From positions 11,762 to 75,761 of the forward strand of contig CAYVZI010000001.1 of NCBI GenBank assembly GCA_964456475.1: a stretch of 64,000 nucleotides of DNA. Direction: 5' to 3'. This stretch comes from an uncultured Candidatus Saccharibacteria bacterium (GTDB taxonomy: Bacteria; Patescibacteriota; Minisyncoccia; Phycocordibacterales; UBA9973). Position numbers and translations under genes: made by a program. The notes under the pieces were generated by a model. That model was given only the letters and a program-made list of their open reading frames with translations, had not been told where the DNA came from and ran no database searches. Below, one piece after another: positions 1 to 62,390 of this stretch; within the stretch, counting starts at the first letter, position 1, and each line of letters begins with the position of its first letter.

Positions 1-124
1 CAGATTTACTTAGCCTAACTCCTCGACCAATATTTGTGCAGTACCAGTAGAGTTTCAATATCTAAATCCTAATTTCTAATGTCTAAAACTAGGTTCTTGA
101 AAAAGGAATCTGTATAATTATTAT

Positions 125-1345: not shown

Positions 1346-1346
1346 G

Positions 1347-1456: not shown

Positions 1457-1477
1457 CTTTGATGTAATATAAAGCTC

Positions 1478-1921
1478 ATGAAAGTAGTATTCATCAAAGA
1501 TCTCAAAGGGGTAGGGCATAAGAACGATATCAAAGACCAGCCAGACGGCTATGCCCGAAATCACCTTATTCCAAAGGGTTATGCGATTCCAGCAACTGCG
1601 GAGGCAATCAAAAAAGTCGAGCGCGGAGCGAATGAAATCCGTGTCGAAAAAGAAATCCAATCTGACCTTTTTAAGCGCAACCTCGAGGCAATTAATGGTG
1701 CTGGAGTGACACTCAAAGTGGCTGCAAATGACAAAGGTCACCTTTTTAAGGCTGTTCACGCCAAGGATATTGCAGATGCTCTCAAAAAAGATTTGCGAAT
1801 CATTATCTCTGAGCAATATATAAAAATCCCTGAACCGATTAAGCAGACTGGCGAATTCAAGGTAGGAGTTGAAGCACTCGGGATGAAAGAATCTATTACA
1901 GTGAATATTGTAAAAGGGTAA
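1478..1921 (+). CDS. rplI: 50S ribosomal protein L9
   Basis: N-terminus MKVVFIKDLKGVGHKNDIKDQPDGYARNHLIPKGYA is typical of L9; 147 aa. Confidence 0.95.
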   Translation: MKVVFIKDLKGVGHKNDIKDQPDGYARNHLIPKGYAIPATAEAIKKVERGANEIRVEKEIQSDLFKRNLEAINGAGVTLKVAANDKGHLFKAVHAKDIADALKKDLRIIISEQYIKIPEPIKQTGEFKVGVEALGMKESITVNIVKG

Positions 1922-1922
1922 T

Positions 1923-2822: not shown

Positions 2823-2838
2823 TTGAACGATTATAAAC

Positions 2839-2874
2839 AAAACCCGCATCATCAGATGCGGGTTTTGTGTTTTA
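2839..2874. terminator. bidirectional intrinsic terminator between convergent genes
   Basis: aaaacccgcatcatcagatgcgggtttt flanked by A/T runs on both sides. Confidence 0.8.
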
Positions 2875-2882
2875 TGACTGAT

Positions 2883-3155
2883 TTAGTCAACGTGAACGAT
2901 TTTCTTTGTTGAGTGAGTTCCGTCGAAGTGTACTTTTCGCTTGTTAGCGAATGATACAGTTCCTTCCTTGAGAGCGAAGAGTGTGTGGTCTGTAGCAACT
3001 TTTACATTGCGTCCTGCCATAATCACTGTTCCGCGCTGACGAATGATGATTGATCCTGCTTTAGTTTTTTCCCCTGCGTAGAGCTTGGTTCCTAGATATT
3101 TAGGATTCGAGTCTCGCAGGTTATGGGCGGTTCCGCCCGCTTTACGATGTGCCAT
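2883..3155 (-). CDS. rpmA: 50S ribosomal protein L27
   Basis: [24 protein letters not shown] is the canonical L27 N-terminus. Confidence 0.95.
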
Positions 3156-3249
3156 ATAGGGTTAAAAATATTCGGGACGATTTCTATGCACGGGGACATC
3201 CAATGCCATATACAGTCAGTACCGATTTAGATATAATTAAAGTAACTTC

Positions 3250-3603
3250 ATGAGTATACATACTTTAGCCCAAAAAATCAAGGCCTGGACAGGGGAGAGG
3301 AGACGACCCCTTGTTCTTGTTGGAATCCTTATATTTACGGCTTTTTCCTCCTTTTACGTTGGATATATTGCTCAAATCGAGACAAGTCCAAATGACTATC
3401 AATTCGAACCTCGTAGTACACAATCAGACCCGAAGGCAATCATACAAGCTACTGATGGGGCATTTATCGCCTCCCAAAATGGCACAAAGTACTACCCAAA
3501 GGAATGCATTGGAGCCAAAAGGATTAAGGAGCCTAATCGCGTATATTTTGAAACAGCAGACGATGCAGAGTCGCAGGGTTATTCATTAGCCTCGGGGTGT
3601 TGA
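3250..3603 (+). CDS. small membrane-anchored protein with a C-terminal Ada-like metal-binding-type motif
   Basis: TM helix LVLVGILIFTAFSSFYVGY. The C-terminus KYYPKEC...EPNRVYFETADDAESQGYSLASGC resembles the Ada N-terminal Zn-binding fold pattern (FCRPSC...ENVSFY..EALAAGF.PC..C), but only 2 of 4 Cys are present. Confidence 0.55.
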   Translation: MSIHTLAQKIKAWTGERRRPLVLVGILIFTAFSSFYVGYIAQIETSPNDYQFEPRSTQSDPKAIIQATDGAFIASQNGTKYYPKECIGAKRIKEPNRVYFETADDAESQGYSLASGC

Positions 3604-3614
3604 AGTGATATACT

Positions 3615-4541
3615 TTGTCTGAGACAAAAACAATGGAAAGATCATCAATCATCAGTACAGTCACACTCGTGTTCGTAGTAATTACGATGGTTTTTCTTTT
3701 GAAAACGAACACAGTTCCAAGTATTCTTCTACCCGAGAAGACCACAGAGAATACAGTGCCTATATTGCAACTCCCTGTAGCTGTTAAAAAGATTGAATCA
3801 CCAATTGTACTACCGGGAGGACTCAAGAAGACAAGTGAATCTGATGCAAATAATACACAAGTGCTGCCAGCTGATTATGTTCTCACACGTGCAGGTGTAA
3901 TTTCCGAGACGAACCTGCATCGTGTTAAGTATGGAAAACAAACGTTAGTTGAGAACAAAAAACTTGATAGCTCTGCTCAAGCAAAGGCTGATGATTTACT
4001 CAAACGACAATACTTCGCACACGAAGCACCAGATGGAACAGCAATTGATGACCTGGTTCGTGAACAAGATTACAGCTATATCAAAATCGGAGAGAATCTT
4101 GCTCTCGGGAATTTTTTGAGCAACGCTGATGTAGTCACTGCATGGATGAATAGTCCAGGGCATCGAACAAATATTCTTGATGGTCAGTATACTGAAATTG
4201 GTATTGGGGTCGCTCGAGGTCTCTATGAAGGCCATATGGTATATTTTGCGGTTCAACACTTCGGACGACCAAGATCGTCATGTCCGAGCATAGAGTCAAA
4301 TTTAAAATCACAATTTACAATTGCACAAAAGTATTTGGATGAACTTATCATTTCGATCAATACCCTAAAAGGTGCGATCGACCAGGGGAGCGGGAACAAT
4401 GATGACCTAAATACCCTAATTGAAAAATACAACGCATCAGTGCTTCTTTATAAAGAAGCTTTTCAGAAAGCTGACTCACTCCGCACAAAATATAATGCTG
4501 AGGTTGCTGCATATAATGCTTGCTTAACTGGTGCTCAATAA
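3615..4541 (+). CDS. CAP/SCP (PR-1-like, YkwD-type) domain protein, membrane anchored
   Basis: Motifs HRVKYGKQTL, AQAKADDLL, ENLALG and NSPGHRTNILDGQYTEIGIGV are typical of the CAP domain. N-terminal TM helix. Confidence 0.8.
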   Translation: MSETKTMERSSIISTVTLVFVVITMVFLLKTNTVPSILLPEKTTENTVPILQLPVAVKKIESPIVLPGGLKKTSESDANNTQVLPADYVLTRAGVISETNLHRVKYGKQTLVENKKLDSSAQAKADDLLKRQYFAHEAPDGTAIDDLVREQDYSYIKIGENLALGNFLSNADVVTAWMNSPGHRTNILDGQYTEIGIGVARGLYEGHMVYFAVQHFGRPRSSCPSIESNLKSQFTIAQKYLDELIISINTLKGAIDQGSGNNDDLNTLIEKYNASVLLYKEAFQKADSLRTKYNAEVAAYNACLTGAQ

Positions 4542-4740
4542 TAAGGTAAATGATGAGGGGGGGGGCACCACTTGATGACAAAGTAGTGTCCTTATTTGTC
4601 TGTGTGGAAAACTATATGGTAATGTCGCACAATATATCTTTCACGACATTATATCCTAATATAATGTGCGTGAAAGATAGCGATTATTTTCCAACGTGAT
4701 TACACATCGGAAAATAATCTTTGGGCCGTAGACCCACACT

Positions 4741-4769
4741 GTCATTCCGGACTTGATACGGAATCCATG
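4741..4769 (+). repeat. hairpin element family GTCATyCCGGA-loop-TCCGGrATCCA, copy A
   Basis: gtcattccggacttgatacggaatccatg. The stem is attccg/cggaat. Confidence 0.7.
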
Positions 4770-4844
4770 AATGTATTCTCCCCTCGATGCCTGCCACAAA
4801 TTTTTTCAAAAAAGTTTTCAAAATTATTTTCTTACAAAAATTGT

Positions 4845-4875
4845 GTCATCCCGGACCCTGATCCGGGATCCATGG
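4845..4875 (+). repeat. hairpin element family, copy B
   Basis: gtcatcccggaccctgatccgggatccatgg. The stem atcccgga/tccgggat shows a compensatory change relative to copy A. Confidence 0.7.
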
Positions 4876-5130
4876 GTATCTGAGTTACATCTATGTGACT
4901 CCTTATATGCCTCTCATATATCAAATGGCCTTAAAACGCATTATACGAGATCAAAAATACGAGTTTAGCATCATTATCGACTTGATCCGATAATCCAGTA
5001 ATTTTCTAGTGTTAAAGCATTTTTTACTAATTAGGGTGAGTTGATGGTAGGTACCGTCAATGCAAGACCTTGAGTATTCTGTAATCAGAAAGCGAACGGT
5101 GTACAGTTCCTGTTAGGAAGTCGACTTCCC

Positions 5131-37804: not shown

Positions 37805-38126
37805 ATAATATGAAGTATATCAAATTTCGGTAAATTAAAAAGAAGGGATCAAAATCCCCTCTTTTGTTAAAACTATCTATTTTAAAAATTAAGATCATGA
37901 TATGGAGTAAAATTTGCATAAAAACTCCACAGGTTATGACTACGTTTGGCTGGCTGGCAGGGCTCTTTTTTGTGCGTGGGCGTACCATGCACTAATCATT
38001 TGCCAAGTCTGTTTTTCTTAAGCATAGTCTTATCAAAACTATACGTCAAATCCAAATACACAGGCTATACACATACTTTGCATAAAACTAACTTTCCTCA
38101 AAAATCGCATGTGTTAGAATCGACTC

Positions 38127-39524
38127 ATGTCCAAAGAAAAAGCACTTCGTGTTCCTCCTCAAAGTCTCGACTCCGAAAAAGCCGTTCTCGGCTCTATCAT
38201 GCTCCGACCCGGATCCCTCATCGAACTTGCGGACAAGATTTCTCCCGACGCGTTCTACGCCGACAAACACAAGAAAATTTACGAGGTCATGCTCGATCTA
38301 TCGATACACAACGAACCGATCGACCTCATTTCCCTTTCGCACAAACTGAAAGAAAAGAAACTCCTTGATGCAATCGGTGGCTCACGATATCTCACCGAAC
38401 TCACCCATTCCGTTCCCTCATCTACGAACGCTGAATATTACGCCGACATTGTCGAACAAAAGTACATCTATCGTCGACTCATCGAAGCAGCCAACAAACT
38501 CTCCGATCTTGGTTACGATTCTGGCGAAACAACACTCGAAGACGTACTCGATACAGCAGAAAAAGAAATTTTTGCGATTTCAGACAGCCCTAAGCGTGGA
38601 AAATATCTGACACTCGGCAATCAACTTGAAGAGGCTTGGACACGTCTTGAGCGGCTTCACGAAAACAAAGGTGAACTTCGCGGTGTGCCAACAGGATACA
38701 AAGAGCTCGACAATCTTCTTTCCGGATTCCAAAATTCCGACCTCATCATTCTTGCCGCTCGTCCATCCGTCGGTAAAACTACACTTGCACTTGATTTTGC
38801 ACGTCTTGCTGCAACAAAGCACAACATCGGCGTTGGTATCTTCTCGCTCGAAATGAGTTCACAGCAGCTCGTCGACCGTATGCTTGCGGCCGAATCTCGC
38901 GTTTCCGCATGGCAACTCCGCACCGGTGGACTTTCGACCGGCGGTCAGGATTTTATGCATCTTCGCGATGCGCTTGATCGTCTTTCAAAAGCTCCAATAT
39001 ACATCGATGACCAACCATCAAGTAGCATCGTCCACATTCGCTCTGTCGCACGTCGCATGAAAGCAGAACACGGTATCGGCATGATTATGATTGACTACCT
39101 CCAACTCATGTCAACATCAAAAAACTATGATTCCATGGTCAACCAAGTCACCGAAATCTCTCGTTCCCTCAAAGCTCTCGCTCGTGAGCTCGATGTGCCT
39201 GTTATAGCGCTCTCACAGCTCTCTCGTGCCGTTGAACAGCGTGGAGGTGAACCTCGCCTCTCCGACCTTCGTGACTCTGGATCCATCGAACAGGATGCCG
39301 ACGTGGTAATGTTCATTCACCGCGAAGATAGATTCAACAAGGATTCCGACCGCACCAATATTGCCAAGATTTTGATTGAAAAACACCGTAACGGTCCGAC
39401 AGGTCATGTAGAGCTATTCATGGACGAAAAGACCACAAGCTTCCTCTCTATCGAAAAAGGCAACATGGATGCATTTACCGCCGCCTCTTCGGGCGGCGGA
39501 GGAATGACCGACGTCGACTTTTAA
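38127..39524 (+). CDS. dnaB: replicative DNA helicase
   Basis: DnaB N-terminal domain, Walker A ARPSVGKTTLALD, and IALSQLSRAVEQR. Confidence 0.95.
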   Translation: MSKEKALRVPPQSLDSEKAVLGSIMLRPGSLIELADKISPDAFYADKHKKIYEVMLDLSIHNEPIDLISLSHKLKEKKLLDAIGGSRYLTELTHSVPSSTNAEYYADIVEQKYIYRRLIEAANKLSDLGYDSGETTLEDVLDTAEKEIFAISDSPKRGKYLTLGNQLEEAWTRLERLHENKGELRGVPTGYKELDNLLSGFQNSDLIILAARPSVGKTTLALDFARLAATKHNIGVGIFSLEMSSQQLVDRMLAAESRVSAWQLRTGGLSTGGQDFMHLRDALDRLSKAPIYIDDQPSSSIVHIRSVARRMKAEHGIGMIMIDYLQLMSTSKNYDSMVNQVTEISRSLKALARELDVPVIALSQLSRAVEQRGGEPRLSDLRDSGSIEQDADVVMFIHREDRFNKDSDRTNIAKILIEKHRNGPTGHVELFMDEKTTSFLSIEKGNMDAFTAASSGGGGMTDVDF

Positions 39525-39530
39525 ATTTCA

Positions 39531-39606
39531 GGGTTTAGGTGCTAGGGTTTAGGGGTTAGCAATTCGCACTCACTATACCCTAAACGCTATACCCTATACC
39601 CTAGCT
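39531..39606. repeat. CTAGG/TTAGGG-type palindromic element (G-arm, 16-nt spacer, C-arm)
   Basis: gggtttaggtgctagggtttaggggttagc ... ccctaaacgctataccctataccctagc. Confidence 0.7.
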
Positions 39607-40227
39607 ATGGATTTACTCAAACGCCTTCAACAATCATTCAAACGATTTCCCGGAATTGGTGAACGCCAAGCGATGCGCTTTGCCTATTTCTTGGCGACTG
39701 CCGACGATGCCTATGTACGCAATCTGACGGAAGAAATTCTAGCGCTCCGTAAAAACGTCCGTCGTTGCGCGAGATGCTTCGCCTTGTCCGAAAAAATACT
39801 TGAAGGGCTCTGTCCAGTCTGTGCCGATCCGGCAAAAGACAAATCAATGATTCTCATTGTTGAAAAAGACGCTGACCGAGATCGCTTCATTCAATCTCGC
39901 ACATATTCCGGAACATATTTTGTGCTTGGTGGACTTGCACCTGCAATTGAAAAAGACGCGAATCAGCACATTCGCCTCGACGAACTCGCAAAACTTGTCG
40001 AAAAAGAGTCTGCCGTGAATCTTAAAGAAGTAATCCTCGCTCTTTCTGCAACGCCCGATGGAGATCGCACCGAAGCGCTCATCCTCGCTCGACTTGAAAC
40101 CGTCGCAAAAGACAAAAACATTTCTCTCTCCATGCTCGGCAAAGGACTCTCAACCGGAACAGAAATTGAATACTCTGATGCAGAAACACTATCTTCGGCC
40201 CTAAAATCGAGAACTCATACAAATTAA
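39607..40227 (+). CDS. recR: recombination protein RecR
   Basis: HhH PGIGERQAMRFAYF, a C4 zinc finger CARC...CPVC, and a Toprim domain. Confidence 0.9.
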   Translation: MDLLKRLQQSFKRFPGIGERQAMRFAYFLATADDAYVRNLTEEILALRKNVRRCARCFALSEKILEGLCPVCADPAKDKSMILIVEKDADRDRFIQSRTYSGTYFVLGGLAPAIEKDANQHIRLDELAKLVEKESAVNLKEVILALSATPDGDRTEALILARLETVAKDKNISLSMLGKGLSTGTEIEYSDAETLSSALKSRTHTN

Positions 40228-45164: not shown

Positions 45165-46868
45165 CTATACTGCTTTGAGTTCGATAGAGAAAGTTGAGCC
45201 CAACCCCACCCCAGGTGAGTCGATCATAATATGACCGCCATGAGCTTCAGCGATTTGTTTTGCAAGATAGAGTCCAAGACCAGAACCTCCGGTGTTTGTC
45301 TTCCCTCCTGCTCCACGAGAAAACTTTTGGAATAATTTTTCTTTTTCTTCAGCAGAAATTCCCATTCCAGTGTCAGTGACTGCAAGTCGAATCATTCCAG
45401 TATCAGGAATCTTCGAAAGCGAGACGGTAATTGATCCTTTTTCTGTGTACTTGATCGCATTGTCGATAATGTTGAGCATTACCTGGCGAAGTTTTTCCAT
45501 GTCACCATGTATCGTATATGGAGCTTTATTGTCTGTAGTAAATGCAAGTTTCAACCCTTTCTTTTCTGCGGTAATGGAGAGATCTGTTGCGAGGTCTTTT
45601 GCAGCTTTTTCCATATCAAACGGTGCCATCTCGTATTTCATTCCTCCAGCCTCAATCTTAGAAACGTTCAACAAATCCTCGACAACCTTAGAAAGATGAG
45701 TACTTGACTCAAACACACGATTGATAGCATCTTTTTGTTTGTCTTCGAACGTTCCATACGAACCGTCAAGAAGCATTGAAGTGTATCCACGAATTGCAGT
45801 AAGCGGACTGCGAAGCTGATGAGCTGCCAGAGAAAGGAATTCCGTTTTGAGTTTATCCAAATCCTTGAGCTTGTCGTTAGCAACTTCGAGTTTAAGATTT
45901 GATTCTTCGAGTTTGAGTCGGAGCTGTTCTAGTCGCTGTCTTTGTTCAACCTCTTTTTTAACACTTTTAATGAGAAAAACACCTGCAATAATTGCACCTA
46001 TGAAAGTAACTGAATTTAAAAAGTAATTAAAAGAATTTCGAATGAAAAAATATTGTGCTCCAACCAATACGACTATTGACCAAACCAAGGCCTGACTTGC
46101 TAGTAGCTTGATATCGAAAGCTTTGAATTTAACAATCACGTACGCCAGAAAGGCAACAAAGATTGGCATACTAAACAGTCCATATTGCTCAAGGCTATAG
46201 TTACCATTTGTAATATATCCATTGTCTAGAAGATACGACACTCCTACAACAGCGACGAAAAATATTATCAAGAAGAATTCAATCCCCAACGTAAGTAACA
46301 CAAGAGGTTTCCTTGCCTCGCTAGATATAGATTTGTACTTGAATGCTACGTATATAATAGTGAGTACTACAGTAATCAGACTAAATAAATAATAATAAGT
46401 TGTATATAAATTATTTTCGAGAGCTGCGCAATCAGGGGCACTAAAACCTGATAGATTGAAAATTGTTGGTGTCAGGATAAGAATCGGCAAGACAGCCAAC
46501 AGGCCTATCACTTTTCTTCTTACGTGAATATCCTTACCATTATTAATAAAAACGGCGATAAAATAGAAAGAAAATAGATAAATGCAGGTTTGAACAATAC
46601 CAAAGAAAGACCAAGCAAACATGACGATAGTACTGTTGTCATAACGAATCCAAGCGACAAGATCCAACGCTGACCAGACAGCAAAAGATAGTGTAATAAT
46701 GAACAAAATTCTACTCAATAGACTACCTCGATTTTCATATAAAACAAAAAAACCGATCAATAGGGCTACCACCGCCGTTGGAATATGTGAATAATAAAGC
46801 AATTGTGATGCCTGATCTACAATCTCCTTACAAAGGGCTAAATTGGAAGCTGTGTTATAAGTAAACAT
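45165..46868 (-). CDS. sensor histidine kinase with N-terminal multi-TM sensor domain
   Basis: About 7 TM helices, HisKA LAAHQLRSPLTAIRGY, and HATPase_c (GSGLGL). No response regulator is adjacent. Confidence 0.85.
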   Translation of the reverse strand: MFTYNTASNLALCKEIVDQASQLLYYSHIPTAVVALLIGFFVLYENRGSLLSRILFIITLSFAVWSALDLVAWIRYDNSTIVMFAWSFFGIVQTCIYLFSFYFIAVFINNGKDIHVRRKVIGLLAVLPILILTPTIFNLSGFSAPDCAALENNLYTTYYYLFSLITVVLTIIYVAFKYKSISSEARKPLVLLTLGIEFFLIIFFVAVVGVSYLLDNGYITNGNYSLEQYGLFSMPIFVAFLAYVIVKFKAFDIKLLASQALVWSIVVLVGAQYFFIRNSFNYFLNSVTFIGAIIAGVFLIKSVKKEVEQRQRLEQLRLKLEESNLKLEVANDKLKDLDKLKTEFLSLAAHQLRSPLTAIRGYTSMLLDGSYGTFEDKQKDAINRVFESSTHLSKVVEDLLNVSKIEAGGMKYEMAPFDMEKAAKDLATDLSITAEKKGLKLAFTTDNKAPYTIHGDMEKLRQVMLNIIDNAIKYTEKGSITVSLSKIPDTGMIRLAVTDTGMGISAEEKEKLFQKFSRGAGGKTNTGGSGLGLYLAKQIAEAHGGHIMIDSPGVGLGSTFSIELKAV

Positions 46869-46873
46869 ATAAT

Positions 46874-47272
46874 TTATTCAGCACACTGTTCATTATTTAA
46901 AATCGTCCCTGAATCACAATCTCGGTATGAACACTTTTCCTCACCTGGAATACAACTTAATTCAGGAAAGCATCCTAGCTTCTCTGTAGATTCCTGGCAA
47001 AAAGCGATCGAGGACGCCATTTTTGAAATCTCTTTATAAAAAACTATCTGCTCATCAGGATTAGTTGAACATGTTGGATCTGATACTGGATCACATGAGT
47101 AGACAAAACATTTTTCATTCGCTGGATCACAGGTTACGTAATCTGTAATAAGATAATTTTTCAGTACCACAATCTGATAGTACGTAAAAAAAACAACTCC
47201 TAATACGAGAAGAATGACGAAAGCAAAAAATATTTTATTCTTCATGTCTGGCTTTGTCTCCGTGGTTTCCAT
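46874..47272 (-). CDS. membrane-anchored Cys-rich (12 Cys) protein
   Basis: TM helix followed by repeated C..C spacing, typical of a disulfide-rich extracytoplasmic domain. Confidence 0.5.
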   Translation of the reverse strand: METTETKPDMKNKIFFAFVILLVLGVVFFTYYQIVVLKNYLITDYVTCDPANEKCFVYSCDPVSDPTCSTNPDEQIVFYKEISKMASSIAFCQESTEKLGCFPELSCIPGEEKCSYRDCDSGTILNNEQCAE

Positions 47273-47279
47273 AATGTGA

Positions 47280-48062
47280 TTATATCATCTTTTTTCTAAT
47301 ATCATGCTGTTGATTATGATCGTGGCTATACCAAAATGGATCTTTTTCGTGTTCAATTGGCAAGAGTGGAAAAATAAGTGGCTTTACTCCAAAAATTTCG
47401 GTTGCTTTTCTAAAACTTGGGAGAATTTTTTCAAAAAAAAATCCTCTCTCAGATTCATCATTGAGCATAAAATTTTCAAAAAGCACTCCGTCACAAATAA
47501 AAAGAGACATGAAATAGAGATAGTAATATTCCGTGATATCACGAGTTGTATTAAACCAATCAGTAATATCAACAATATTTTTACTTGCACCCGGATAGAC
47601 AGATGCAAGAAGCTCTCTATGAGTCTCAATAAGGGAATCGCCCCAAATAGTTTTTATGTCGGATAAAGGTTTACCTTCCCAAATGTTGAAATCAACCACT
47701 CGGCAAGTGTCTTTGGTATCGTCAAACATAGTTGCTTTTTCTTTTGAAAATAACAATTTGCAAAGGAAGTATTTATTTTTATTTTTATTTACAAATTTTC
47801 CGGCAGGATATTCAAGGAGTAAGGGTTCCATATTTAGAGAAGAAACTAAGTCCATAAAATATTGCATTTCACGATTTGGAGTTATAATTTCTCTATTAAA
47901 GATTGCTCTTGGTCTTTCAAATGAATGAGGGAACGGATGTTCCTTCCAAAACAACCTAACGCGTTCAACCAGAGCGTGGTCATTCGACCTTCGCTCTATT
48001 TCTTTTTCTAGCTGGGAAAACGGTGTGTAAATTTCCTCAAGGATATCTTGATCTTCACTCAT
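47280..48062 (-). CDS. hypothetical protein
   Basis: 260-aa ORF, the first gene of a co-directional three-gene unit with the kinase. Confidence 0.5.
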   Translation of the reverse strand: MSEDQDILEEIYTPFSQLEKEIERRSNDHALVERVRLFWKEHPFPHSFERPRAIFNREIITPNREMQYFMDLVSSLNMEPLLLEYPAGKFVNKNKNKYFLCKLLFSKEKATMFDDTKDTCRVVDFNIWEGKPLSDIKTIWGDSLIETHRELLASVYPGASKNIVDITDWFNTTRDITEYYYLYFMSLFICDGVLFENFMLNDESERGFFFEKILPSFRKATEIFGVKPLIFPLLPIEHEKDPFWYSHDHNQQHDIRKKMI

Positions 48063-48267
48063 ATTCTGTCTTCTGAATTATAGGTATGTTACGACAAGAC
48101 TACTCTTACTAGTATATTCCTTTTTTTTCAATAAACCACTAGTTTTGGCAATTTATTGATAATATTGACATTATATATTATTTATGCTATTATTTCAAGT
48201 AAATCCCGGTTTAGTGAGATGAGCGTCCAGTCCACCTGGAAATTGATCTCACTAAATCCATTAAAAA

Positions 48268-48762
48268 TTGAAAACAGGTTCGCGACTCGGAAGAATTCTC
48301 TTAGGGATAGGAGCTTTTCTTGCAACGAGTGGTTTCAGCTACTCGTTTGATTATTTTGTTTACCCGATTGTTACCTATTATTTCGGGTTCTCAAAAAGTT
48401 TAATTATTTTATTTCTCGCTGCGCTTATCATGAATTATTTCGTTGTACTTTTGTACGATCTGTTCAAAAAAGATTTTTTTGGATTTGAGGCACTTAAGGA
48501 AATGAAGGAGTCAGGTAACGGCAGAGGTATGATGTACAGAATAATGAAATGGGGCGATATTCCCTTCTTTATCTTTCTTTCATGGTACGACCCAATATTT
48601 GCGGTTTTATACAAAAGGAGGAGTAAAAGCTTTAACGGCTTTAGAAGGAGAGATTATTTTATTCTTGTGCTTAGTACATTAATTGGGTGTATTATCTGGT
48701 CAGGATTTTGGTCAGCAGGTATTGAATTTGTTAAATACATATTTCCACAATGGTTCTCCTAG
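48268..48762 (+). CDS. hypothetical membrane protein (TTG start)
   Basis: 4 predicted TM helices. Its 3' end is duplicated at 50530-50660. Confidence 0.5.
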   Translation: MKTGSRLGRILLGIGAFLATSGFSYSFDYFVYPIVTYYFGFSKSLIILFLAALIMNYFVVLLYDLFKKDFFGFEALKEMKESGNGRGMMYRIMKWGDIPFFIFLSWYDPIFAVLYKRRSKSFNGFRRRDYFILVLSTLIGCIIWSGFWSAGIEFVKYIFPQWFS

Positions 48763-48822
48763 CAATAGCGAGAGCCATTTTTTTATCCTATTTTTAAACA
48801 ATAATGAGAGTCCCTCGTTTCG
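48693..48822 (+). repeat. direct repeat copy 1 (~130 bp; 3' end of the 48268 gene plus 60 bp downstream)
   Basis: About 97% identical to 50530-50660. Confidence 0.85.
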
Positions 48823-49015
48823 ATATAATCTGATTTTATTATAAGTACCCCCCCTTTTTTTGCGTATTAAAAAACAAAACTGCAGTCCCCGCTTGTTTTT
48901 TTTGGCAACTGCCTATGATATTCTTCGTCAGTTAATTTTTTGGACATGAAAATTGTCTTTCTAATTTGACATAGAAATAATACTACTGTAGTTTAATATA
49001 TAAAAATATCTTTAT

Positions 49016-49579
49016 ATGGGACTTATTGAAATAAAGGGAAAGAGGCTAACCTTGAGAGAAATTTCAAAAGATGATCTGCCCCAATTACTCCTTTGGAGAA
49101 ATTCGGAAATCTTTCAAAAATCATGTCTTTCCTACTCGAAAGACTGCACAATTGAAGAACTTGACAGAGAAATTGACATTTCATATCGTCAAGATAAATA
49201 TGCTCAATTTATTGCTTGGACATCAGACGACAAGCCAGTAGGTACGAACTGGATATATCGATACCACAAAACAAATGGCATAGGATTTACCACAACATTT
49301 GTTGATGAGCAATACAGACAAAGTCATTATTATGCGATTGAAATGTTCGCACTCATTTGCAAATATATGTTTAACGAACTTGCTTGTCGAAAGATTTACT
49401 CAGAAGTTCACGCTGGGAATACTCCTTCAATGAATATCTTCAACAAACTTAATCTTCCTCTTGAAGCGACATTTAAGAATCACTCAAAAGTGGGTTTGAA
49501 CGATTTCGAGGATCTGTTGGTTTACGCCTTGTACAAAGAAGCCTTTGAATCCATGAATATTCCAAAAAAACTTTTGTGA
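49016..49579 (+). CDS. GNAT family N-acetyltransferase (RimJ/RimL-like)
   Basis: GNAT fold pattern including the motif A region. Confidence 0.7.
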   Translation: MGLIEIKGKRLTLREISKDDLPQLLLWRNSEIFQKSCLSYSKDCTIEELDREIDISYRQDKYAQFIAWTSDDKPVGTNWIYRYHKTNGIGFTTTFVDEQYRQSHYYAIEMFALICKYMFNELACRKIYSEVHAGNTPSMNIFNKLNLPLEATFKNHSKVGLNDFEDLLVYALYKEAFESMNIPKKLL

Positions 49580-49580
49580 C

Positions 49581-49612
49581 CGCACCAGCATTGGTGTGGT
49601 TTTTTAATATTC
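49581..49612. terminator. bidirectional intrinsic terminator
   Basis: accgcaccagcattggtgtggtttttt. Confidence 0.7.
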
Positions 49613-49846
49613 CATTTTGAGAATTAAACCTTTCGGGATTGAAAAATATTTCGGTTGAGCTTCTGGGTGTTTTTTGTTTGTATGAATATTTAGTGTCTCC
49701 TCGTTTTCTACTATAATATAATCGGCACTTTCTTTGACGAGAGTGCCAATAGTTTTCATCTGACTTGGAGTGCTAATTTCCTCATTCGAGGAATACATGA
49801 ATATATCGTTCCAATATATTGTTACTTGCTGATTATTCTTTATCAT
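49604..49846 (-). CDS. small protein, paralog B of a tandem pair
   Basis: 80 aa. It shares the pattern TIyW.D...P...G.li.E.......KK......IP...ii..K with the upstream ORF. Confidence 0.5.
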   Translation of the reverse strand: MIKNNQQVTIYWNDIFMYSSNEEISTPSQMKTIGTLVKESADYIIVENEETLNIHTNKKHPEAQPKYFSIPKGLILKMEY

Positions 49847-50110
49847 AAAAATCTATCTTTTTAAACTCAATAATTGCATTTTCAGGAATGATAAAGCCAT
49901 TAGTGGGAACCATACTTTTCTTTTCTTTGTCATAGTGAACACTGCATGCAATATTCGTCCATTGTTCGTTTGTCTCTATAATGAAGCCACAGGTCAAATT
50001 AATCTTTGGAGTTTCATTCTCGAGTGCCTGTATATCATCAGTATATGCAGCATCCCGCCAGAGAATAGTACAAATAGGATTTTTATAATTTATGTTTTTT
50101 GTAGCCATGT
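49833..50110 (-). CDS. small protein, paralog A of the tandem pair (trimmed to MATKNINYK)
   Basis: About 92 aa. The ORF-track N-terminal His-rich extension overlaps another frame and was rejected. Confidence 0.45.
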
Positions 50111-50172
50111 AAATAAAATGTAAAAAGTGCAGTAATATTATACCACACTTTTTATTTTTGTAGTGACACGGA

Positions 50173-50382
50173 TTATTTTCCGCTACTACTGCCACCACTA
50201 CTGCTATGTGATGATGACGAATTACTGGATGAATTATTACTCGACGATGCCTTGTGGGCAGCTCTTTCTGGTAATTCACCAGATTTTTGTGCATGATCAC
50301 GTGCATCATGCCAAGCAGACGATACTTCCCTTGTTGAGGAATTGGTATCTCGTGCTGCATCAGATTTAGTATATTCTGACAA
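50173..50382 (-). CDS. small hydrophilic protein with Ser-rich C-terminal tail
   Basis: TTG start preceded by AAGGAGGA at 7 nt, and a TTGACA-N16-TAAAAT promoter about 60 bp upstream. Confidence 0.5.
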   Translation of the reverse strand: MSEYTKSDAARDTNSSTREVSSAWHDARDHAQKSGELPERAAHKASSSNNSSSNSSSSHSSSGGSSSGK

Positions 50383-57057: not shown

Positions 57058-58365
57058 CTAAATTGGCAAATTAGAAGGTGGCTTCGCAACTTTAGACTCA
57101 ATTCGCTTAAACGAAGGCGCCTGCGAAACCTGACCAGGGAAATGGAACAGTGTGGCCAATTCTTCGACATTCACTACACCAATAACAGGTCGTTTTGATG
57201 GAAAAAATGTGTTGACTAGACTTGGATAATCAATCGAGTACCAAAACGGCGGATGATAGAAAATACGATGTCGATACCAGTTGAGCATGCGATTCGTAAT
57301 CTTATGCAAAAGAAGTCCTGTTGGATCAGCGTATGGGCCATCTACTCCAGTCGAATTCAATTTTACAAAACTATTCCCATCAGGATTCGCGTACTGTCGA
57401 AAGAGAAGTCCGCTCGCCATGGTTATTTTATTGAATTGATCAAACGAGACATACTTTTTTTCTGCAACAACAACGACTCGAATTCCAATATCAAACCCAA
57501 GTTTTTGAATTTTCTCTTGAATTTTTTTGACCCGACTTGCCACCATATCTGGCGGACGTACTTGCACGCCGACATCTCCTGCAATTGCTCCAGCTTTTGT
57601 AAAAAATTCTTGTGTATAAGGAGCAAGAATACGATCGACTTCCTCATTTGCTTCATCTATCCAGCCGATATGTTTTCCTGTCTTGTGTGAATGATATGCC
57701 TTGCATGATGGGCGCACGACGTGTTGAATCCAAATCTGTTCACCACGCTTGAGCGAGCCAAGCAATTCTATTGTCGGTGTAAGTGGGTCAATCTTGAGAT
57801 TTTCCTTGTCGCTCGGTTTGTCGAGACCATAATCAACATAGGTTCGAATCGGCTTGGAATCGTGTTCCACGAGCTTGAATTCTGCTCCCCAAACATGCCA
57901 GTCATCATTCGGAGCATCAAATGGTATCTTCATTGAATAATCCTTCGCATCGCGAACTTTTGCTTGAGGATACTGTGCGTACACTTGCGTTTCGATAAGA
58001 TCGCGAACACGCGAAGGTGTACGGATATAGAATTTTACAAAGCCCTCAATTCCAACGATTTCGAGCGAAAACCAAAAATGGGGTGATCCTTCAAACCAGA
58101 TATCCCACAACCCTTTTGTACCAGCATGATAGAGTGCATTACTGAAAATAAGTTCCATGGCCATTGGACTCTTTTCAATTTCACGAGGAATCTCAATTTC
58201 AAGAAGAGACCATTTCATGCCAATGATATATCGCTCTGTGACAAAATGGTGCCACAATTCAAATCCGATATACATCAGTAGTATCGGAGCCCATATGAAT
58301 GCAAGTTTTCCAATAATAAAAAATATGAATGAAAAAATTGCACCAAGAATGCCAAGTACTTCCAT
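57058..58365 (-). CDS. hypothetical membrane protein (N-terminal 2 TM, large soluble domain)
   Basis: 435 aa with no NTPase or other recognised motif. Confidence 0.55.
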   Translation of the reverse strand: MEVLGILGAIFSFIFFIIGKLAFIWAPILLMYIGFELWHHFVTERYIIGMKWSLLEIEIPREIEKSPMAMELIFSNALYHAGTKGLWDIWFEGSPHFWFSLEIVGIEGFVKFYIRTPSRVRDLIETQVYAQYPQAKVRDAKDYSMKIPFDAPNDDWHVWGAEFKLVEHDSKPIRTYVDYGLDKPSDKENLKIDPLTPTIELLGSLKRGEQIWIQHVVRPSCKAYHSHKTGKHIGWIDEANEEVDRILAPYTQEFFTKAGAIAGDVGVQVRPPDMVASRVKKIQEKIQKLGFDIGIRVVVVAEKKYVSFDQFNKITMASGLLFRQYANPDGNSFVKLNSTGVDGPYADPTGLLLHKITNRMLNWYRHRIFYHPPFWYSIDYPSLVNTFFPSKRPVIGVVNVEELATLFHFPGQVSQAPSFKRIESKVAKPPSNLPI

Positions 58366-58412: not shown

Positions 58413-58904
58413 CTAAAATTGGACTGGCACTGCATAGACGAGCCCTGTTGTACTCACAAACACGATTTTTCCCATATCAGTTGAAGGTGGAGTCAATAGC
58501 ATGAGATCATTTCCGAAATACATTGGATATCCATCTGTGGTATTCGGTACAACAAGGTCAGATGGTTTTGTTATCGGCATTCCCATGTCATCGAATACTT
58601 GTGCTGTTCCAGCAATAGCATATCCACCTGGAGTACCTCCGTACATCCAACCACACTGATTGATATATCCCGACACTTTCACGGGAAAAACTATTTTCGT
58701 ATTCGAATCAGGTTTTTGCACAGTGAGACCACACGGCAAACGAAGTAATGACTTTATGTTGAATGAATCCCAAAGAACTCTTTCATCCTTGAAGAACCCA
58801 GAGAAAATGAATGCCAAAAAAATAAGTATTGCAATAACTGCAATAAAGTTTACTCCGCCCTCGCCACGTTCGTGTATCATTAAAACATTATAGCAATAAA
58901 TCAT
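58413..58904 (-). CDS. hypothetical membrane-anchored protein
   Basis: TM helix IAVIAILIFLAFIF followed by a ~120-aa beta-rich domain. Confidence 0.5.
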   Translation of the reverse strand: MIYCYNVLMIHERGEGGVNFIAVIAILIFLAFIFSGFFKDERVLWDSFNIKSLLRLPCGLTVQKPDSNTKIVFPVKVSGYINQCGWMYGGTPGGYAIAGTAQVFDDMGMPITKPSDLVVPNTTDGYPMYFGNDLMLLTPPSTDMGKIVFVSTTGLVYAVPVQF

Positions 58905-58966
58905 AAAATCACGAGAAAAAAGCCCCCTGTTTTACAGAAGGCCTTAATAAAAAGCAAAATAGATAG

Positions 58967-59614
58967 TTACAGATACTGCAAGATAATAAAAGACAACATT
59001 AGAAGTAAAGATATAACACTCAAAATAGCGGTGAGATTTTTGTTATCAGTAGTAAAGGCAAAAATCATAAAACTCATAACACCAGCACCTATACTCAATA
59101 ACGGAAAATCAGCGATAAAGCCGATACTACTAAAAAATGTCACTAATGCAATAGCTGTAGCAAATAATGCATACATTATACAAAATATTCTCGACGAAAA
59201 ATTGCATAATATCATACAAAGAATAGATAGTGCCGCCAAAAACAAATGCCACGCGAAGAGTACTGAGGCAGAGCTTCCGTTATTACCCACAGCAACAATA
59301 GTGCTACCAGTAAGTAAAATGCCTTGCGTATATTCTTCGCAAACATATATCTCAACCAAGTTTTTCATTTTACTAGAGCGGATTTTCCGCTCTCCAACAG
59401 CAATTGTATCACCAGGATGGTCGATAGCTTGCTGAAAGAACGCATTATATTGCTCCGCATCCTTTGCGACAAAAATACCAGTGTTTTCATATGTCACCAG
59501 AGTATCAGGTGCGATGCGATAGTTTCCGTCTGAAGACTTCTGCAATTGCCGTTGAGCAAAAAGAGATGTTGCGGTTATCAATGCAACAACGCAGAACAAT
59601 ACTATTCTTTTCAT
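58967..59614 (-). CDS. hypothetical protein with signal peptide, ~100-aa ectodomain and 3 C-terminal TM helices
   Basis: Hydropathy pattern only. Confidence 0.5.
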   Translation of the reverse strand: MKRIVLFCVVALITATSLFAQRQLQKSSDGNYRIAPDTLVTYENTGIFVAKDAEQYNAFFQQAIDHPGDTIAVGERKIRSSKMKNLVEIYVCEEYTQGILLTGSTIVAVGNNGSSASVLFAWHLFLAALSILCMILCNFSSRIFCIMYALFATAIALVTFFSSIGFIADFPLLSIGAGVMSFMIFAFTTDNKNLTAILSVISLLLMLSFIILQYL

Positions 59615-59734: not shown

Positions 59735-60766
59735 TTAGATAGGTGAGTATTTCTTGTCTTTGTTTTTCTTGAAATACTTTGGGTTCTGAAGATTCACAAG
59801 GATTGTGTTCTTTTTGAGGTAGCGTTCCTTGAGAACTTTGTCTACCACTTCTTCCTTGGTGAGCGGTCCTTCACGTTTCAAGATTTCCTTGATGACGTCA
59901 CGGACGACTCCCGGCTTGTATCCCCATTCTTGAAGAGCATACATTCCGCGTCCAACAAGTACGAAGCGTTTGTCTTTGATGAGTTCGTTGTGGCAAGTAG
60001 CTGTGTGACACTTCTTCACAAATGTATCGGAGATCGCTTCTGCAACTTCACGGAAGTGCATCGGTGATCCGTGCTTACGCATCATAAGATATGCAAAATC
60101 CTTGATACCACGAGCCTTCACACCGCTTGCTGTAGCGCGTCCCATTTCGCCGAGTGGATTCTTACAGATTCCTTTTGAGAGACAGAGCCATCGCTTTGCA
60201 ATTTCTTCATCAACAGTAGCAACGTTAATCTTTTTCAATTCATCAAGGAAACGATTTACCATTTCACTTTCAGTAATGAGTTCGTCATCATCAAGCTTTT
60301 CGTACAATGACTGAAGTGTAGTGTGTACTTTGTCAGAAAGGTCTGTATCAATACTCCAGCGAGATACAAAATTGTCGTCTTCGCGGTGTTTGATGAATTC
60401 ATCTCCAAGAACAAGGTAGAAGTGGATGTGATTCTGAGTTTCCTCATCCTTTGCAATACTTGAGAGAAGGTCGTCTTCTGCTACGAGCCCGCCGAGTTCA
60501 GTAATGAGTGATTTAAGTTCACTCCAAGTAGACTTTTCACTCTTGTAGTCGTCTGATTTTTTGATGAGGGCGAGTGCAGCCTGTTCAATCTGACGAACAC
60601 GCTCACGGGTAATGCCGTATTTGTCTCCGATTGCCTCCAATGTCTGTCGTTCAGCAAGGGTTCCAAGTCCAAAACGGCTCTTGATAATATCAAGAGAACG
60701 GTCCTGAAGCGGGGAAAGTATTTTTTTTGTGACAGCCTTTGGCTTAAATGATATTTTCTTTGACAT
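59735..60766 (-). CDS. DNA-binding protein with N-terminal sigma-70 region-4 HTH and C-terminal HARE-HTH domain (not a sigma factor)
   Basis: N-terminus LDIIKSRFGLGTLAERQTLEAIGDKYGITRERVRQIEQAALALIKK is a region 4.2 consensus. C-terminus MHFREVAEAI...FVLVGRGMYALQEWGY is a HARE-HTH/RpoE-delta-like pattern. No region 2 or 3 motifs. Confidence 0.65.
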   Translation of the reverse strand: MSKKISFKPKAVTKKILSPLQDRSLDIIKSRFGLGTLAERQTLEAIGDKYGITRERVRQIEQAALALIKKSDDYKSEKSTWSELKSLITELGGLVAEDDLLSSIAKDEETQNHIHFYLVLGDEFIKHREDDNFVSRWSIDTDLSDKVHTTLQSLYEKLDDDELITESEMVNRFLDELKKINVATVDEEIAKRWLCLSKGICKNPLGEMGRATASGVKARGIKDFAYLMMRKHGSPMHFREVAEAISDTFVKKCHTATCHNELIKDKRFVLVGRGMYALQEWGYKPGVVRDVIKEILKREGPLTKEEVVDKVLKERYLKKNTILVNLQNPKYFKKNKDKKYSPI

Positions 60767-60922
60767 AAATAAATTTTGTTAGATTATTACAATTCGATTC
60801 TATCATTATTGCCTGAAAAGTCAAACAATCGCTCTGGAATCTTCACTCCCCTTTTAATTTCGATTTGAGTACTATAGCACATATGTACCAATTTAGTCAA
60901 ATTCGGCTCAAAATAGCCATTT

Positions 60923-62029: not shown

Positions 62030-62058
62030 GTTCTAGGATCTAGCTTCTAGGTTCTAGT
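62030..62058. repeat. CTAGG-type element arm overlapping the 3' end of the four-helix-bundle gene
   Basis: ggttctaggatctagcttctaggttctag. Confidence 0.65.
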
Positions 62059-62390
62059 TTAATAATCATAACTCGCAACATTTTGCTTACTTCTTCGAGT
62101 AATTCAAGGTGTGACTGAATACTTAATGAATACAAATCTCGACAAAGAAATAATTGAGTCTCAAGCTCTGAAGCGGAGCCATATGATAAGCACAAAAAAT
62201 GTGCGTAATCTTTTCGAGTCTTACGACTTGAACCTTCTGCAATATTCGAGATGATTGAAACACTGGCTCTCCTCATCTGAGACTGAAGAGCATATATTTC
62301 CATTTGAGGAAGTTGAATTTGATAGACAAGCTTAGTAAGATCATAAGCCTTTTTCCAAACTGTCAGATCTTTATACGAATTAAGTGACAT
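62040..62390 (-). CDS. four-helix-bundle protein (23S rRNA intervening-sequence protein family, TIGR02436-like)
   Basis: YKDLTVWKKAYDLTKLVY...LQSQMRRASVSIISNIAEGSSRKTRKDYAHFL..GSASELETQL matches the family consensus. Confidence 0.8.
   Translation of the reverse strand: MSLNSYKDLTVWKKAYDLTKLVYQIQLPQMEIYALQSQMRRASVSIISNIAEGSSRKTRKDYAHFLCLSYGSASELETQLFLCRDLYSLSIQSHLELLEEVSKMLRVMIIKLEPRS

What the first reader, a model, noticed from the sequence alone, without database searches (positions are those of the whole stretch)
59735..60766. Sigma-70 region-4 HTH fused to a C-terminal HARE-HTH domain, with no sigma regions 2 and 3
The N-terminal 70 aa match the sigma-70 region 4.2 consensus almost exactly (GITRERVRQIEQAALALIKK). 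The C-terminal 70 aa match the HARE-HTH/RpoE-delta N-terminal pattern (MHFREVAEAI...FVLVGRGMYALQEWGY), and about 200 aa of unknown sequence lie between. The gene would be mis-annotated as rpoD by naive similarity. It could be an RNAP-associated factor that docks the way region 4 and the delta subunit do, possibly an anti-sigma-like or promoter-specificity factor, which would matter in reduced genomes with few sigma factors.
Basis: partly seen in the sequence, partly recalled or inferred. Interest (0 to 1): 0.5.

Follow-up and report, generated by a model that had tools for sequence, protein, structure and literature searches.

The report
Sigma region-4 plus four winged helices
This gene encodes a widespread but unstudied protein of the tiny "CPR" bacteria that joins the promoter-reading tip of a sigma factor to four winged-helix domains; it is not a sigma factor, and it is usually encoded next to a membrane ATPase of the kind that moves DNA, so it probably brings DNA to that machine.

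Summary
Window 59735-60766 (-) encodes a 343-aa protein with Sigma70_r4 (res 17-69, E=1.4e-10) and HARE-HTH (res 221-281, E=1.7e-10). Neither it nor any of 88 diverse relatives has sigma region 1, 2 or 3, so it is not a divergent sigma.

The "unknown" middle is two winged helices, and a fourth follows the HARE domain. A very confident model (pLDDT 96.9, pTM 0.87) shows r4 plus four tandem winged helices, linked pairwise by profile comparison.

The family has at least 573 clusters at 50% identity. Full-length copies turned up only in CPR/Patescibacteria, all labelled "hypothetical".

The −35-contacting residues of primary sigma are invariant in 89/89 members (R584, E585, R586, R588, Q589). The sigma-specific C-terminal KLRHPS tail is not conserved. 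The r4, HARE and last domains are basic, whereas the RNAP delta N-terminal domain is strongly acidic.

In about 21 of 23 loci the gene directly precedes DUF8128, a membrane protein with a VirB4 N-terminal-domain fold. In many loci a VirD4/TrwB-like ATPase comes next.

Best reading (confidence about 0.4): a DNA-recognition partner of this split type-IV-secretion-like ATPase.

The parts
59735..60766 (-). Whole gene: 343-aa protein made of sigma region 4 plus four winged helices (stop codon 59735-59737)
   Evidence: ORF list. Identical protein on a Logan contig and in NCBI. AF2 model pLDDT 96.9, pTM 0.87.
60542..60745 (-). Residues 8-75: complete sigma-70 region 4 (4.1, 4.2 and the following short helix). 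The recognition helix is GITRERVRQIE.
60350..60541 (-). Residues 76-139: winged helix A. Acidic and poorly conserved.
   Evidence: Secondary structure H78-90, E94-96, H97-104, H108-120, E125-127, E136-138. hhalign to wB 80%. Family mean charge -2.4 and top-residue frequency 0.35.
60131..60349 (-). Residues 140-212: winged helix B. Near neutral and poorly conserved.
   Evidence: elements H141-157, H166-179, H187-194, E200-202, E208-210. hhalign to wD 92%. Charge and conservation.
59921..60115 (-). Residues 218-282: HARE-HTH winged helix. Basic, and the most conserved part of the protein (H237, F238, H259, N260, L262, G272, R273, G274, Y276 invariant).
59738..59914 (-). Residues 285-343: fourth winged helix (HARE-like). 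Basic and well conserved.
   Evidence: elements H288-299, H304-314, H319-326, E332-334, E339-342. hhalign to HARE 86% and to wB 92%. Weak DUF3320 hit. Mean charge +5.0.
60797..60900 (-). Two sigma-70-type promoter-like sites just upstream of the gene: TTGACT-18-TATAGT at 60900-60871 and TTGACT-16-TAGAAT at 60824-60797, both with an extended -10 TG.
   Evidence: Consensus scan. A comparable TTGAC(A/T)-N17-TATAAT-like site lies upstream of the gene in nearly all homologous loci. Consensus matches only, not proof of function.
57058..58365 (-). Conserved downstream partner gene: 435-aa DUF8128 protein. It has an N-terminal hydrophobic hairpin, a VirB4 N-terminal-domain-like fold, no Walker A motif and an invariant C-terminal KPPSNLP tail.
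58413..59614 (-). Two lineage-specific small membrane ORFs (215 aa at 58967-59614 and 163 aa at 58413-58904) inserted between the target and DUF8128. The first has its own promoter-like site (59670-59642) and terminator-like hairpin (58945-58919).
   Evidence: no family hits; hydrophobic windows. Absent or different in relatives.

Best explanation
SHOWN. The gene encodes a non-sigma protein built from a complete sigma-70 region 4 followed by four tandem winged-helix domains that profile comparison links in pairs; the third is a Pfam HARE-HTH. It belongs to a large family that, as far as sampled, is restricted to CPR/Patescibacteria. Every residue that primary sigma uses to contact the -35 hexamer is invariant in that family. 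The gene has its own sigma-70-type promoter. In most lineages it is immediately followed by a membrane-anchored protein with a VirB4 N-terminal-domain fold (DUF8128). In many lineages a soluble VirD4/TrwB/HerA-type P-loop ATPase comes after that. DUF8128 and this ATPase match the N- and C-terminal halves of a single phage protein family profile (phrog_5156), which suggests they are fused in one protein there.

INFERRED. The protein is a sequence-specific double-stranded-DNA binder. Its r4 domain reads a TTGAC-like hexamer, the same motif as the organism's own -35 element. The basic HARE and C-terminal winged helices add DNA contacts. The acidic, variable winged helices A and B act as a spacer or a protein-contact module. 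It serves as the DNA-recognition or loading subunit of the co-encoded split VirB4/VirD4-like membrane ATPase. This would resemble the way the FtsK gamma winged helix (KOPS), the Streptomyces TraB winged helix (clt repeats), or TraM/TrwA with TraD/TrwB direct a HerA/FtsK-superfamily motor to particular DNA. What the machine does with the DNA (segregation, uptake or export) is not resolved.
For: Architecture and non-sigma status.

DNA-binding reading:
- R554, R562, T572, L573, E574, T583, R584, E585, R586, R588 and Q589 equivalents are invariant or nearly so across 89 members at 32-53% identity.
- R584 and E585 contact -31 and -33, and R588 sets specificity (PMC2613000).
- r4, HARE and wD are basic (+4.6, +5.2, +5.0) and the whole protein has pI ~9.3.
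- Promoters in these genomes do use TTGAC(A/T).

Partner:
- DUF8128 lies directly downstream in about 21 of 23 loci from Paceibacterota, Kaiserbacteria, Doudnabacteria, Falkowbacteria and others, with spacers as short as 4-30 bp.
- The ATPase follows in at least 10 loci.
- The ATPase hits TrwB_AAD_bind, DUF87, T4SS-DNA_transf and TraG-D_C.
- Both map onto one PHROG family.

Precedent: a sigma-related HTH inserted into HerA/FtsK-type DndH (PMC10853773). Orphan VirD4-type T4CPs are abundant in Patescibacteria and were suggested to be exapted for other functions (PMC12102498).
Against: No physical interaction or DNA binding was tested; gene adjacency is the only link to the ATPase system. In the window's own lineage the ATPase is not adjacent and is absent from the whole 64-kb window, and two unrelated ORFs interrupt the pair. 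At least two lineages (L014 Peregrinibacteria, L094) keep the gene without DUF8128 nearby. Known T4CP accessory proteins are ribbon-helix-helix proteins, not sigma- or winged-helix-type. A hexamer as common as a -35 element seems a poor address for a translocase. The HARE fold of RNAP delta binds protein, not DNA. I could not inspect the model coordinates to see whether the r4 recognition helix is exposed.
Confidence: 0.4

Rival explanations
1. RNAP-associated accessory factor. Region 4 docks on the beta-flap tip helix, and the HARE domain docks on beta-prime as the delta subunit does. The protein would then modulate initiation or recycling, or tether RNAP to the membrane complex.
Against: The residues under the strongest constraint are the DNA-contacting ones. 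Primary-sigma-specific positions (E555, E575, K597, R599, H600, P601, L611) are relaxed. The HARE region has charge +7 against -14 for delta. There is no acidic tail. The NCBIfam delta score is below its cut-off (27.4 versus 42). No RNAP gene is a conserved neighbour. A resident sigma with its own r4 would compete for the same flap.
Confidence: 0.2
2. Stand-alone global regulator or nucleoid-associated protein. It binds -35-like hexamers through r4, plus flanking DNA through the basic winged helices, and occludes or marks promoters (an anti-sigma-like competitor acting at the DNA). Its position in front of DUF8128 would only reflect a regulator placed first in an operon, or conserved synteny.
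For: The DNA-contact residues are identical to those of the resident sigma. Three domains are basic. The gene has its own promoter with a TTGAC(A/T) -35 that it could bind for autoregulation. The gene persists without DUF8128 nearby in L014 and L094.
Against: The gene order with DUF8128 is kept across very deep CPR lineages, often with a 4-30 bp spacer, which goes beyond what synteny alone usually preserves. A five-domain, rigidly packed protein (pTM 0.87) with two acidic domains is more than a simple repressor needs.
Confidence: 0.25
3. A highly divergent but genuine sigma factor whose regions 2 and 3 are hidden in the middle segment.
For: Only the strong r4 similarity.
Confidence: 0.02

Closest known systems
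Region 4 (sigma-4 domain) of group-1/2 sigma-70 factors (RpoD/SigA/RpoS)
   Different: The domain is N-terminal instead of C-terminal. Regions 1.1-3.2 are absent. The primary-sigma KLRHPS tail is not conserved. Four winged helices follow it.
RNA polymerase delta subunit (RpoE of Firmicutes; TIGR04567; PDB 8x6g_E)
   Same: One domain (218-282) shares the HARE-HTH fold and the D-x-RF...G...W-L..W motif.
   Different: The delta N-terminal domain is acidic (-14) and is followed by a polyanionic tail, and it binds RNAP. Here the domain is basic (+7), internal, and flanked by further winged helices. The NCBIfam score is below the cut-off.
Bacterial sigma-HTH + HARE-HTH proteins noted by Aravind & Iyer 2012 (Cell Cycle 11:119). 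This is my recollection of the abstract; the paper is not held.
   Same: The same two-domain combination. The HARE-HTH is interpreted there as a DNA-reading (possibly modification-reading) module.
   Different: Not verifiable here. The CPR family with four tandem winged helices and the DUF8128/ATPase neighbourhood is, as far as I could find, undescribed (searches found nothing).
MzaA (MZA anti-phage system sigma-like protein) and the Abditibacteriota plasmid 'RpoD' next to an Eco57I-type methylase
   Same: The best NCBIfam and PADLOC hits are to the r4 segment. The plasmid protein also has r4 plus a HARE-like region with no Pfam r2 hit.
   Different: Only about 60 residues match (49.8 bits against a cut-off of 800). 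Those proteins are 570-730 aa and sit in defence or restriction contexts. The CPR family sits among housekeeping genes.
DNA-recognition modules of HerA/FtsK-superfamily translocases: FtsK gamma domain (KOPS), Streptomyces TraB wHTH (clt), TraM-TraD and TrwA-TrwB, and the DndH variant with an inserted sigma-related HTH (PMC10853773)
   Same: The proposed working logic is the same: HTH or winged-helix modules give sequence address to a membrane-associated HerA/FtsK/VirD4-type motor encoded with them.
   Different: There is no Ftsk_gamma or ribbon-helix-helix similarity. No relaxase or oriT is known. The motor's N-terminal domain is itself split off as DUF8128.

Membership tests
Sigma-70 family sigma factor | Region 2 (core binding, -10 recognition and melting) | tested here: not met
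   No Sigma70_r2 hit at E<=10. 0/89 members hit it. The family profile aligns to PDB sigma chains only in r4. The middle folds as winged helices.
Sigma-70 family sigma factor | Region 4 HTH recognising the -35 element | tested here: met
   Sigma70_r4 40.9 bits, above the 24.1 cut-off. 89/89 members hit it. Recognition residues invariant. DNA binding itself was not tested.
Sigma-70 family sigma factor | Region 3 / 3.2 linker through the RNA exit channel | tested here: not met
   No Sigma70_r3 hit in 89 members. r4 starts at about residue 8, so nothing precedes it.
RNAP delta subunit (RpoE, TIGR04567) | N-terminal HARE-HTH domain scoring above the family cut-off | tested here: not met
   TIGR04567 27.4 bits against a cut-off of 42. 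The domain is internal (residues 223-281), not N-terminal.
RNAP delta subunit (RpoE, TIGR04567) | Acidic N-terminal domain followed by a long polyanionic C-terminal tail | tested here: not met
   Target 215-300 has net charge +7 against -14 for S. aureus delta 11-96. The C-terminal domain has charge +8 and the whole protein pI 9.0.
RNAP delta subunit (RpoE, TIGR04567) | Binds RNAP core (beta-prime) | not testable with these tools
   No complex prediction or biochemistry was available.
HARE-HTH domain superfamily (PF05066) | Profile match above the Pfam gathering threshold, with a winged-helix fold | tested here: met
   [not shown]
MzaA (NF041931 / PADLOC PDLC02203) | Full-length match (~700 aa) above the equivalog cut-off | tested here: not met
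   49.8 bits against a cut-off of 800. Only model positions 646-703 are matched. PADLOC positions 603-656 of 683.
T4SS coupling-protein accessory DNA-binding proteins (TraM/TrwA type) | Encoded next to a VirD4/TraD/TrwB-type ATPase | tested here: inconclusive
   The ATPase lies two genes downstream in at least 10 loci. It is not adjacent in the window's lineage and is absent from the window.
T4SS coupling-protein accessory DNA-binding proteins (TraM/TrwA type) | Ribbon-helix-helix or TraM fold; relaxase and oriT context | tested here: not met
   The fold is r4 plus winged helices. No relaxase appears in any neighbourhood. Relaxases are rare in Patescibacteria (PMC12102498).
FtsK gamma-type winged-helix DNA reader | Sequence or profile similarity to Ftsk_gamma and covalent attachment to the motor | tested here: not met
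   No Ftsk_gamma Pfam hit in 89 members. It is a separate polypeptide. The analogy is functional only.

The most novel reading that the evidence does not exclude
CPR/Patescibacteria may carry a phylum-wide chromosomal DNA-handling machine. In it, a sigma-region-4-derived reader with four winged helices recognises -35-like hexamers and loads or tethers DNA, or promoter-bound and transcribing DNA, onto a membrane-anchored split VirB4/VirD4-type ATPase (DUF8128 plus the orphan T4CP). This would explain what the thousands of orphan coupling proteins in these epibionts are for, for example DNA exchange with the host or an FtsK-like segregation role. It would also be the first case of a sigma promoter-recognition domain recruited as the address module of a translocase.
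Probability: 0.25. Interest if true: 0.8.

Novelty: new variant of a known kind. Interest (0 to 1): 0.55.

Why it matters
CPR bacteria make up a large share of bacterial diversity, have tiny genomes and few regulators, and most of their conserved proteins are unannotated.

This family is large (at least 573 clusters at 50% identity) and deeply conserved, yet it is labelled only "hypothetical" or at risk of being called RpoD.

Showing that it is not a sigma factor prevents mis-annotation. Showing that it keeps sigma's exact -35-reading surface gives a concrete, testable DNA motif.

Its link to DUF8128 and the VirD4-like ATPase offers a handle on an open question from the recent literature (PMC12102498): why Patescibacteria encode thousands of coupling-protein homologues far from any type IV secretion genes and without relaxases.

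If the RNAP-docking alternative were true instead, it would be a new kind of RNAP accessory subunit.

Tried and rejected
1. Divergent sigma factor: rejected.
2. The missing region 4 of a split sigma: rejected. A relative sits 0.85 kb from a 575-aa sigma with its own r2 and r4 and the same TRERIRQIE helix.
3. Phage, plasmid or defence element: no full-length match in phage or plasmid records, in BFVD structures, or in PADLOC/PHROGs beyond the r4 segment. The context is housekeeping.
4. Functional link to the adjacent RseP site-2 protease (anti-sigma-type regulation): RseP adjacency holds only in the closest relatives, so I did not pursue it.
5. A special conserved DNA site upstream of the gene: comparison of 22 upstream regions showed only ordinary TTGAC(A/T)-N17-TATAAT promoters.
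6. SecF fusion (P0165, 659 aa): a real in-frame read-through on one contig. It is a single observation, so I treat it as anecdotal.
7. Dead ends:
- The afdb50 fold library was unavailable.
- Aravind & Iyer 2012 is not held.
- Literature searches for the domain pair, DUF8128, and CPR region-4 proteins returned nothing relevant.
- The genome-contig scan was swamped by ordinary sigma factors, so only 14 full-length loci came back.
- There are no tRNA or Rfam features in the window.
- Model coordinates are not exposed, so I could not check whether the DNA face or the flap groove of r4 is buried.

Full report
**1. The observation**

The ORF is real and lies exactly where reported: window 59735-60766, minus strand, 343 aa. 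Pfam finds Sigma70_r4 at residues 17-69 (E=1.4e-10, 40.9 bits against a cut-off of 24.1). It finds HARE-HTH at residues 221-281 (E=1.7e-10, 41.6 bits against 25.9). No other sigma region appears even at E<=10.

NCBIfam sigma models (RpoD, RpoS, RpoH, MzaA and others) match only through their last ~60 positions. The delta-subunit model TIGR04567 matches residues 223-281 but below its cut-off. Against PDB sequences, only region-4 fragments and the C-terminal ends of sigma chains match.

**2. Is it a disguised sigma factor?**

I collected 150 representatives at 50% clustering (573 clusters at E<=1e-30) and aligned 89 full-length members at 32-53% identity (A1).
- All 89 hit Sigma70_r4 and HARE-HTH; none hits r1, r2 or r3.
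- The A1 profile matches PDB sigma chains at E~1e-20, in a single stretch covering only profile positions ~4-82.
- An AlphaFold2 model built on A1 is very confident (pLDDT 96.9, pTM 0.87).

Profile-profile comparison of the four units links them in pairs: wA~wB 80%, wB~wD 92%, HARE~wD 86%. So the "200 aa of unknown sequence" is about 150 aa forming two further winged helices, and the HARE domain is followed by a fourth.

**3. Distribution**

The word-indexed search returned 8000 proteins, its candidate cap. All 120 listed carry the same two Pfam domains and are unnamed or "hypothetical", with Candidatus Pacebacteria as the named source.

In one-genome-per-species contigs, full-length matches were found only in CPR/Patescibacteria. 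These were Paceibacterota, Kaiserbacteria, Parcubacteria, Doudnabacteria, Falkowbacteria, Peregrinibacteria, and some MAGs labelled Saccharibacteria. All other hits were the r4 of ordinary sigma factors.

No full-length relative exists in the phage or plasmid collections or in viral predicted structures.

An Abditibacteriota plasmid protein has r4 as its only Pfam hit, plus a HARE-like stretch. It sits next to an Eco57I-type methylase and is deposited as "RpoD".

**4. What the r4 domain retains**

I mapped A1 columns onto E. coli sigma-70 numbering. The E. coli sequence came from memory, and the register agrees with the phmmer coordinates 10-69 = 541-599.

| E. coli position | Conservation in the family |
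|---|---|
| R554 | 80 R, 9 K |
| R562 | 89/89 |
| T572 | 88/89 |
| L573 | 89/89 |
| E574 | 65/89 |
| G577 | 89/89 |
| T583 | 85/89 |
| R584, E585, R586, R588, Q589 | 89/89 each |

R584 and E585 make the base contacts at -31 and -33, and R588 sets specificity (PMC2613000).

I then compared the family with 66 ordinary sigma r4 segments taken from the fetched loci. Positions conserved in sigma but relaxed in this family include E555, E575, A594, K597, R599, H600, P601 and L611, that is the primary-sigma "KLRHPS..." tail. From general knowledge, that tail carries activator contacts and leads into the helix that packs on the beta flap. One caveat applies: the sigma set was selected through the TRERIRQIE pattern, so its invariance there is by construction. 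The family's invariance is not.

The constraint therefore lies on the DNA-reading face rather than on holoenzyme-specific features.

**5. Charge and conservation by domain**

| Domain | Family mean net charge | Top-residue frequency |
|---|---|---|
| r4 | +4.6 | 0.52 |
| wA | -2.4 | 0.35 |
| wB | +0.2 | 0.33 |
| HARE | +5.2 | 0.69 |
| wD | +5.0 | 0.58 |

The whole protein has pI ~9.3. The S. aureus delta N-terminal domain, as aligned, has net charge -14, against +7 for the corresponding target segment. There is no acidic tail. Taken together, this pattern argues for nucleic-acid binding by r4, HARE and wD, and against a delta-like mode.

**6. Genomic context**

The window is ordinary CPR housekeeping DNA: holB-like, frr, a 23S-IVP-type protein, rseP, the target, yceG, gatB, dnaJ, dnaB, recR and others. 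It has no other sigma-like ORF.

The informative feature is the gene downstream of the target. A 435-aa protein (57058-58365, precomputed PF26449 DUF8128) follows the target on the same strand in about 21 of 23 loci examined, across deep CPR lineages. Spacers are as short as 4-30 bp.

Two gene orders recur.
- secD-secF-TARGET-DUF8128-ATPase is found in L007-L011, L071, L082-84 and L091/92.
- TARGET-DUF8128-yceG is found in the window, L001-L006 and L085-89.

Nearly every locus has its own TTGAC(A/T)-N17-TATAAT-like promoter just upstream of the target, even when secF ends less than 120 bp away. The transcription unit therefore seems to start at the target.

There are exceptions. In L014 (Peregrinibacteria) dnaE follows the target. 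In L094 RNase III and a full sigma factor lie next door.

In the window itself, two small lineage-specific membrane ORFs are inserted between the target and DUF8128, and the first has its own promoter-like and terminator-like sites. The ATPase is absent from the entire 64 kb.

**7. What the partner genes are**

- DUF8128 has no hit in the local Pfam copy, NCBIfam or PDB sequences.
- It has an N-terminal hydrophobic hairpin and no Walker A motif.
- The ATPase (549-667 aa) has a Walker A at residues 33-40 and no transmembrane segment. It hits TrwB_AAD_bind, DUF87/HerA, T4SS-DNA_transf and TraG-D_C, and often carries a C-terminal zinc finger.
- One PHROG family of 824 positions (phrog_5156) is matched by DUF8128 at positions 79-290 (weakly, E=3e-4) and by the ATPase at positions 407-818. 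This suggests the two are halves of one VirB4-like protein that is fused elsewhere.

A 2025 survey found 5,713 VirD4-type coupling-protein homologues in 2,918 Patescibacteria genomes. Only 148 lie near virB4, and relaxases are almost absent. The authors suggested the coupling protein was exapted for another function (PMC12102498). That paper does not mention a sigma-like or winged-helix partner.

**8. Interpretation**

*Shown.* The protein is a non-sigma made of r4 plus four winged helices. It is CPR-wide and has an intact -35-reading surface. It is encoded in front of a split VirB4/VirD4-like membrane ATPase in most lineages.

*Inferred (confidence about 0.4).* It is the DNA-recognition or loading partner of that ATPase. 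This is the logic of the FtsK gamma domain with KOPS, TraB with clt, or TrwA with TrwB. There is an independent precedent: a sigma-related HTH inserted into a HerA/FtsK-type DndH (PMC10853773).

*Rivals.*
It is disfavoured by the charge pattern, the relaxed sigma-specific positions, and the absence of any RNAP gene in the neighbourhood.
- A stand-alone -35-binding regulator or nucleoid protein (about 0.25) fits the DNA-reading surface and the lineages that lack DUF8128 nearby. It does not explain the deep conservation of the gene pair.
- A divergent sigma factor (about 0.02) is effectively refuted.
- The "missing half of a split sigma" idea is refuted by coexistence with a full sigma carrying the same recognition helix.

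**9. Novelty**

The domain pair is catalogued: precomputed Pfam annotations list it on thousands of database proteins. From memory, Aravind & Iyer noted sigma-like HARE-HTH proteins in 2012. No held paper mentions this family, DUF8128, or their linkage.

I rate it a new variant of a known kind, namely HTH address modules attached to HerA/FtsK-type motors and sigma-derived HTH domains used outside sigma factors. Interest is moderate (0.55). It is a large, unannotated, phylum-scale family with a concrete, testable DNA motif, and it bears directly on the open question of the orphan coupling proteins in Patescibacteria.

Noticed in passing
L094:7929-9656 (-), JGI contig Ga0558716_00106: A 575-aa CPR sigma factor with precomputed Pfam Sigma70_r2 + Sigma70_r4 + Bac_DnaA_C. 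It looks like a full sigma carrying a C-terminal extension similar to DnaA domain IV, and it lies 0.85 kb from a homologue of the target.
   Followed up: partly
[not shown]
   Followed up: yes
L082:6385-8364 (protein P0165, 659 aa): SecF and the target homologue are read as one ORF with no stop codon between them, on a single ENA contig. This is either a genuine membrane-tethered fusion or an assembly error.
   Followed up: partly
window 58413-59614 (-): Two small hydrophobic ORFs (215 aa and 163 aa) with no family hits are inserted between the target and DUF8128. The first has its own 11/12 consensus promoter (59670-59642) and a 12-bp-stem terminator (58945-58919). Relatives carry a different single 151-aa ORF or nothing there.
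   Followed up: partly
window 62040-62390 (-): A 116-aa four-helix-bundle '23S rRNA intervening sequence protein' (PF05635, E=4e-31) sits as a free-standing gene between frr and rseP. No rRNA or any Rfam family was detected anywhere in the window.
   Followed up: no
window 46001-50000: G+C drops to 0.34-0.35 against about 0.41 elsewhere. The stretch holds small ORFs with no Pfam hit (47280-48062, 48268-48762, 49833-50360) and a GNAT acetyltransferase (49016-49579). It may be acquired DNA.
   Followed up: partly
window 38001-40000: Locally high G+C (0.47) with strong negative GC skew (-0.16) over the dnaB (38127-39524) and recR (39607-40227) genes. Cumulative GC skew peaks near 24-26 kb and falls steadily afterwards.
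   Followed up: no
L090 (AP024153.1, Abditibacteriota plasmid) 26-5092: A 568-aa protein annotated RpoD has only Sigma70_r4 (227-274) by Pfam plus a HARE-like C-terminal region. It is followed by a 1119-aa Eco57I/MmeI-type methylase. This looks like a defence-type operon with an r4+HARE reader.
   Followed up: partly
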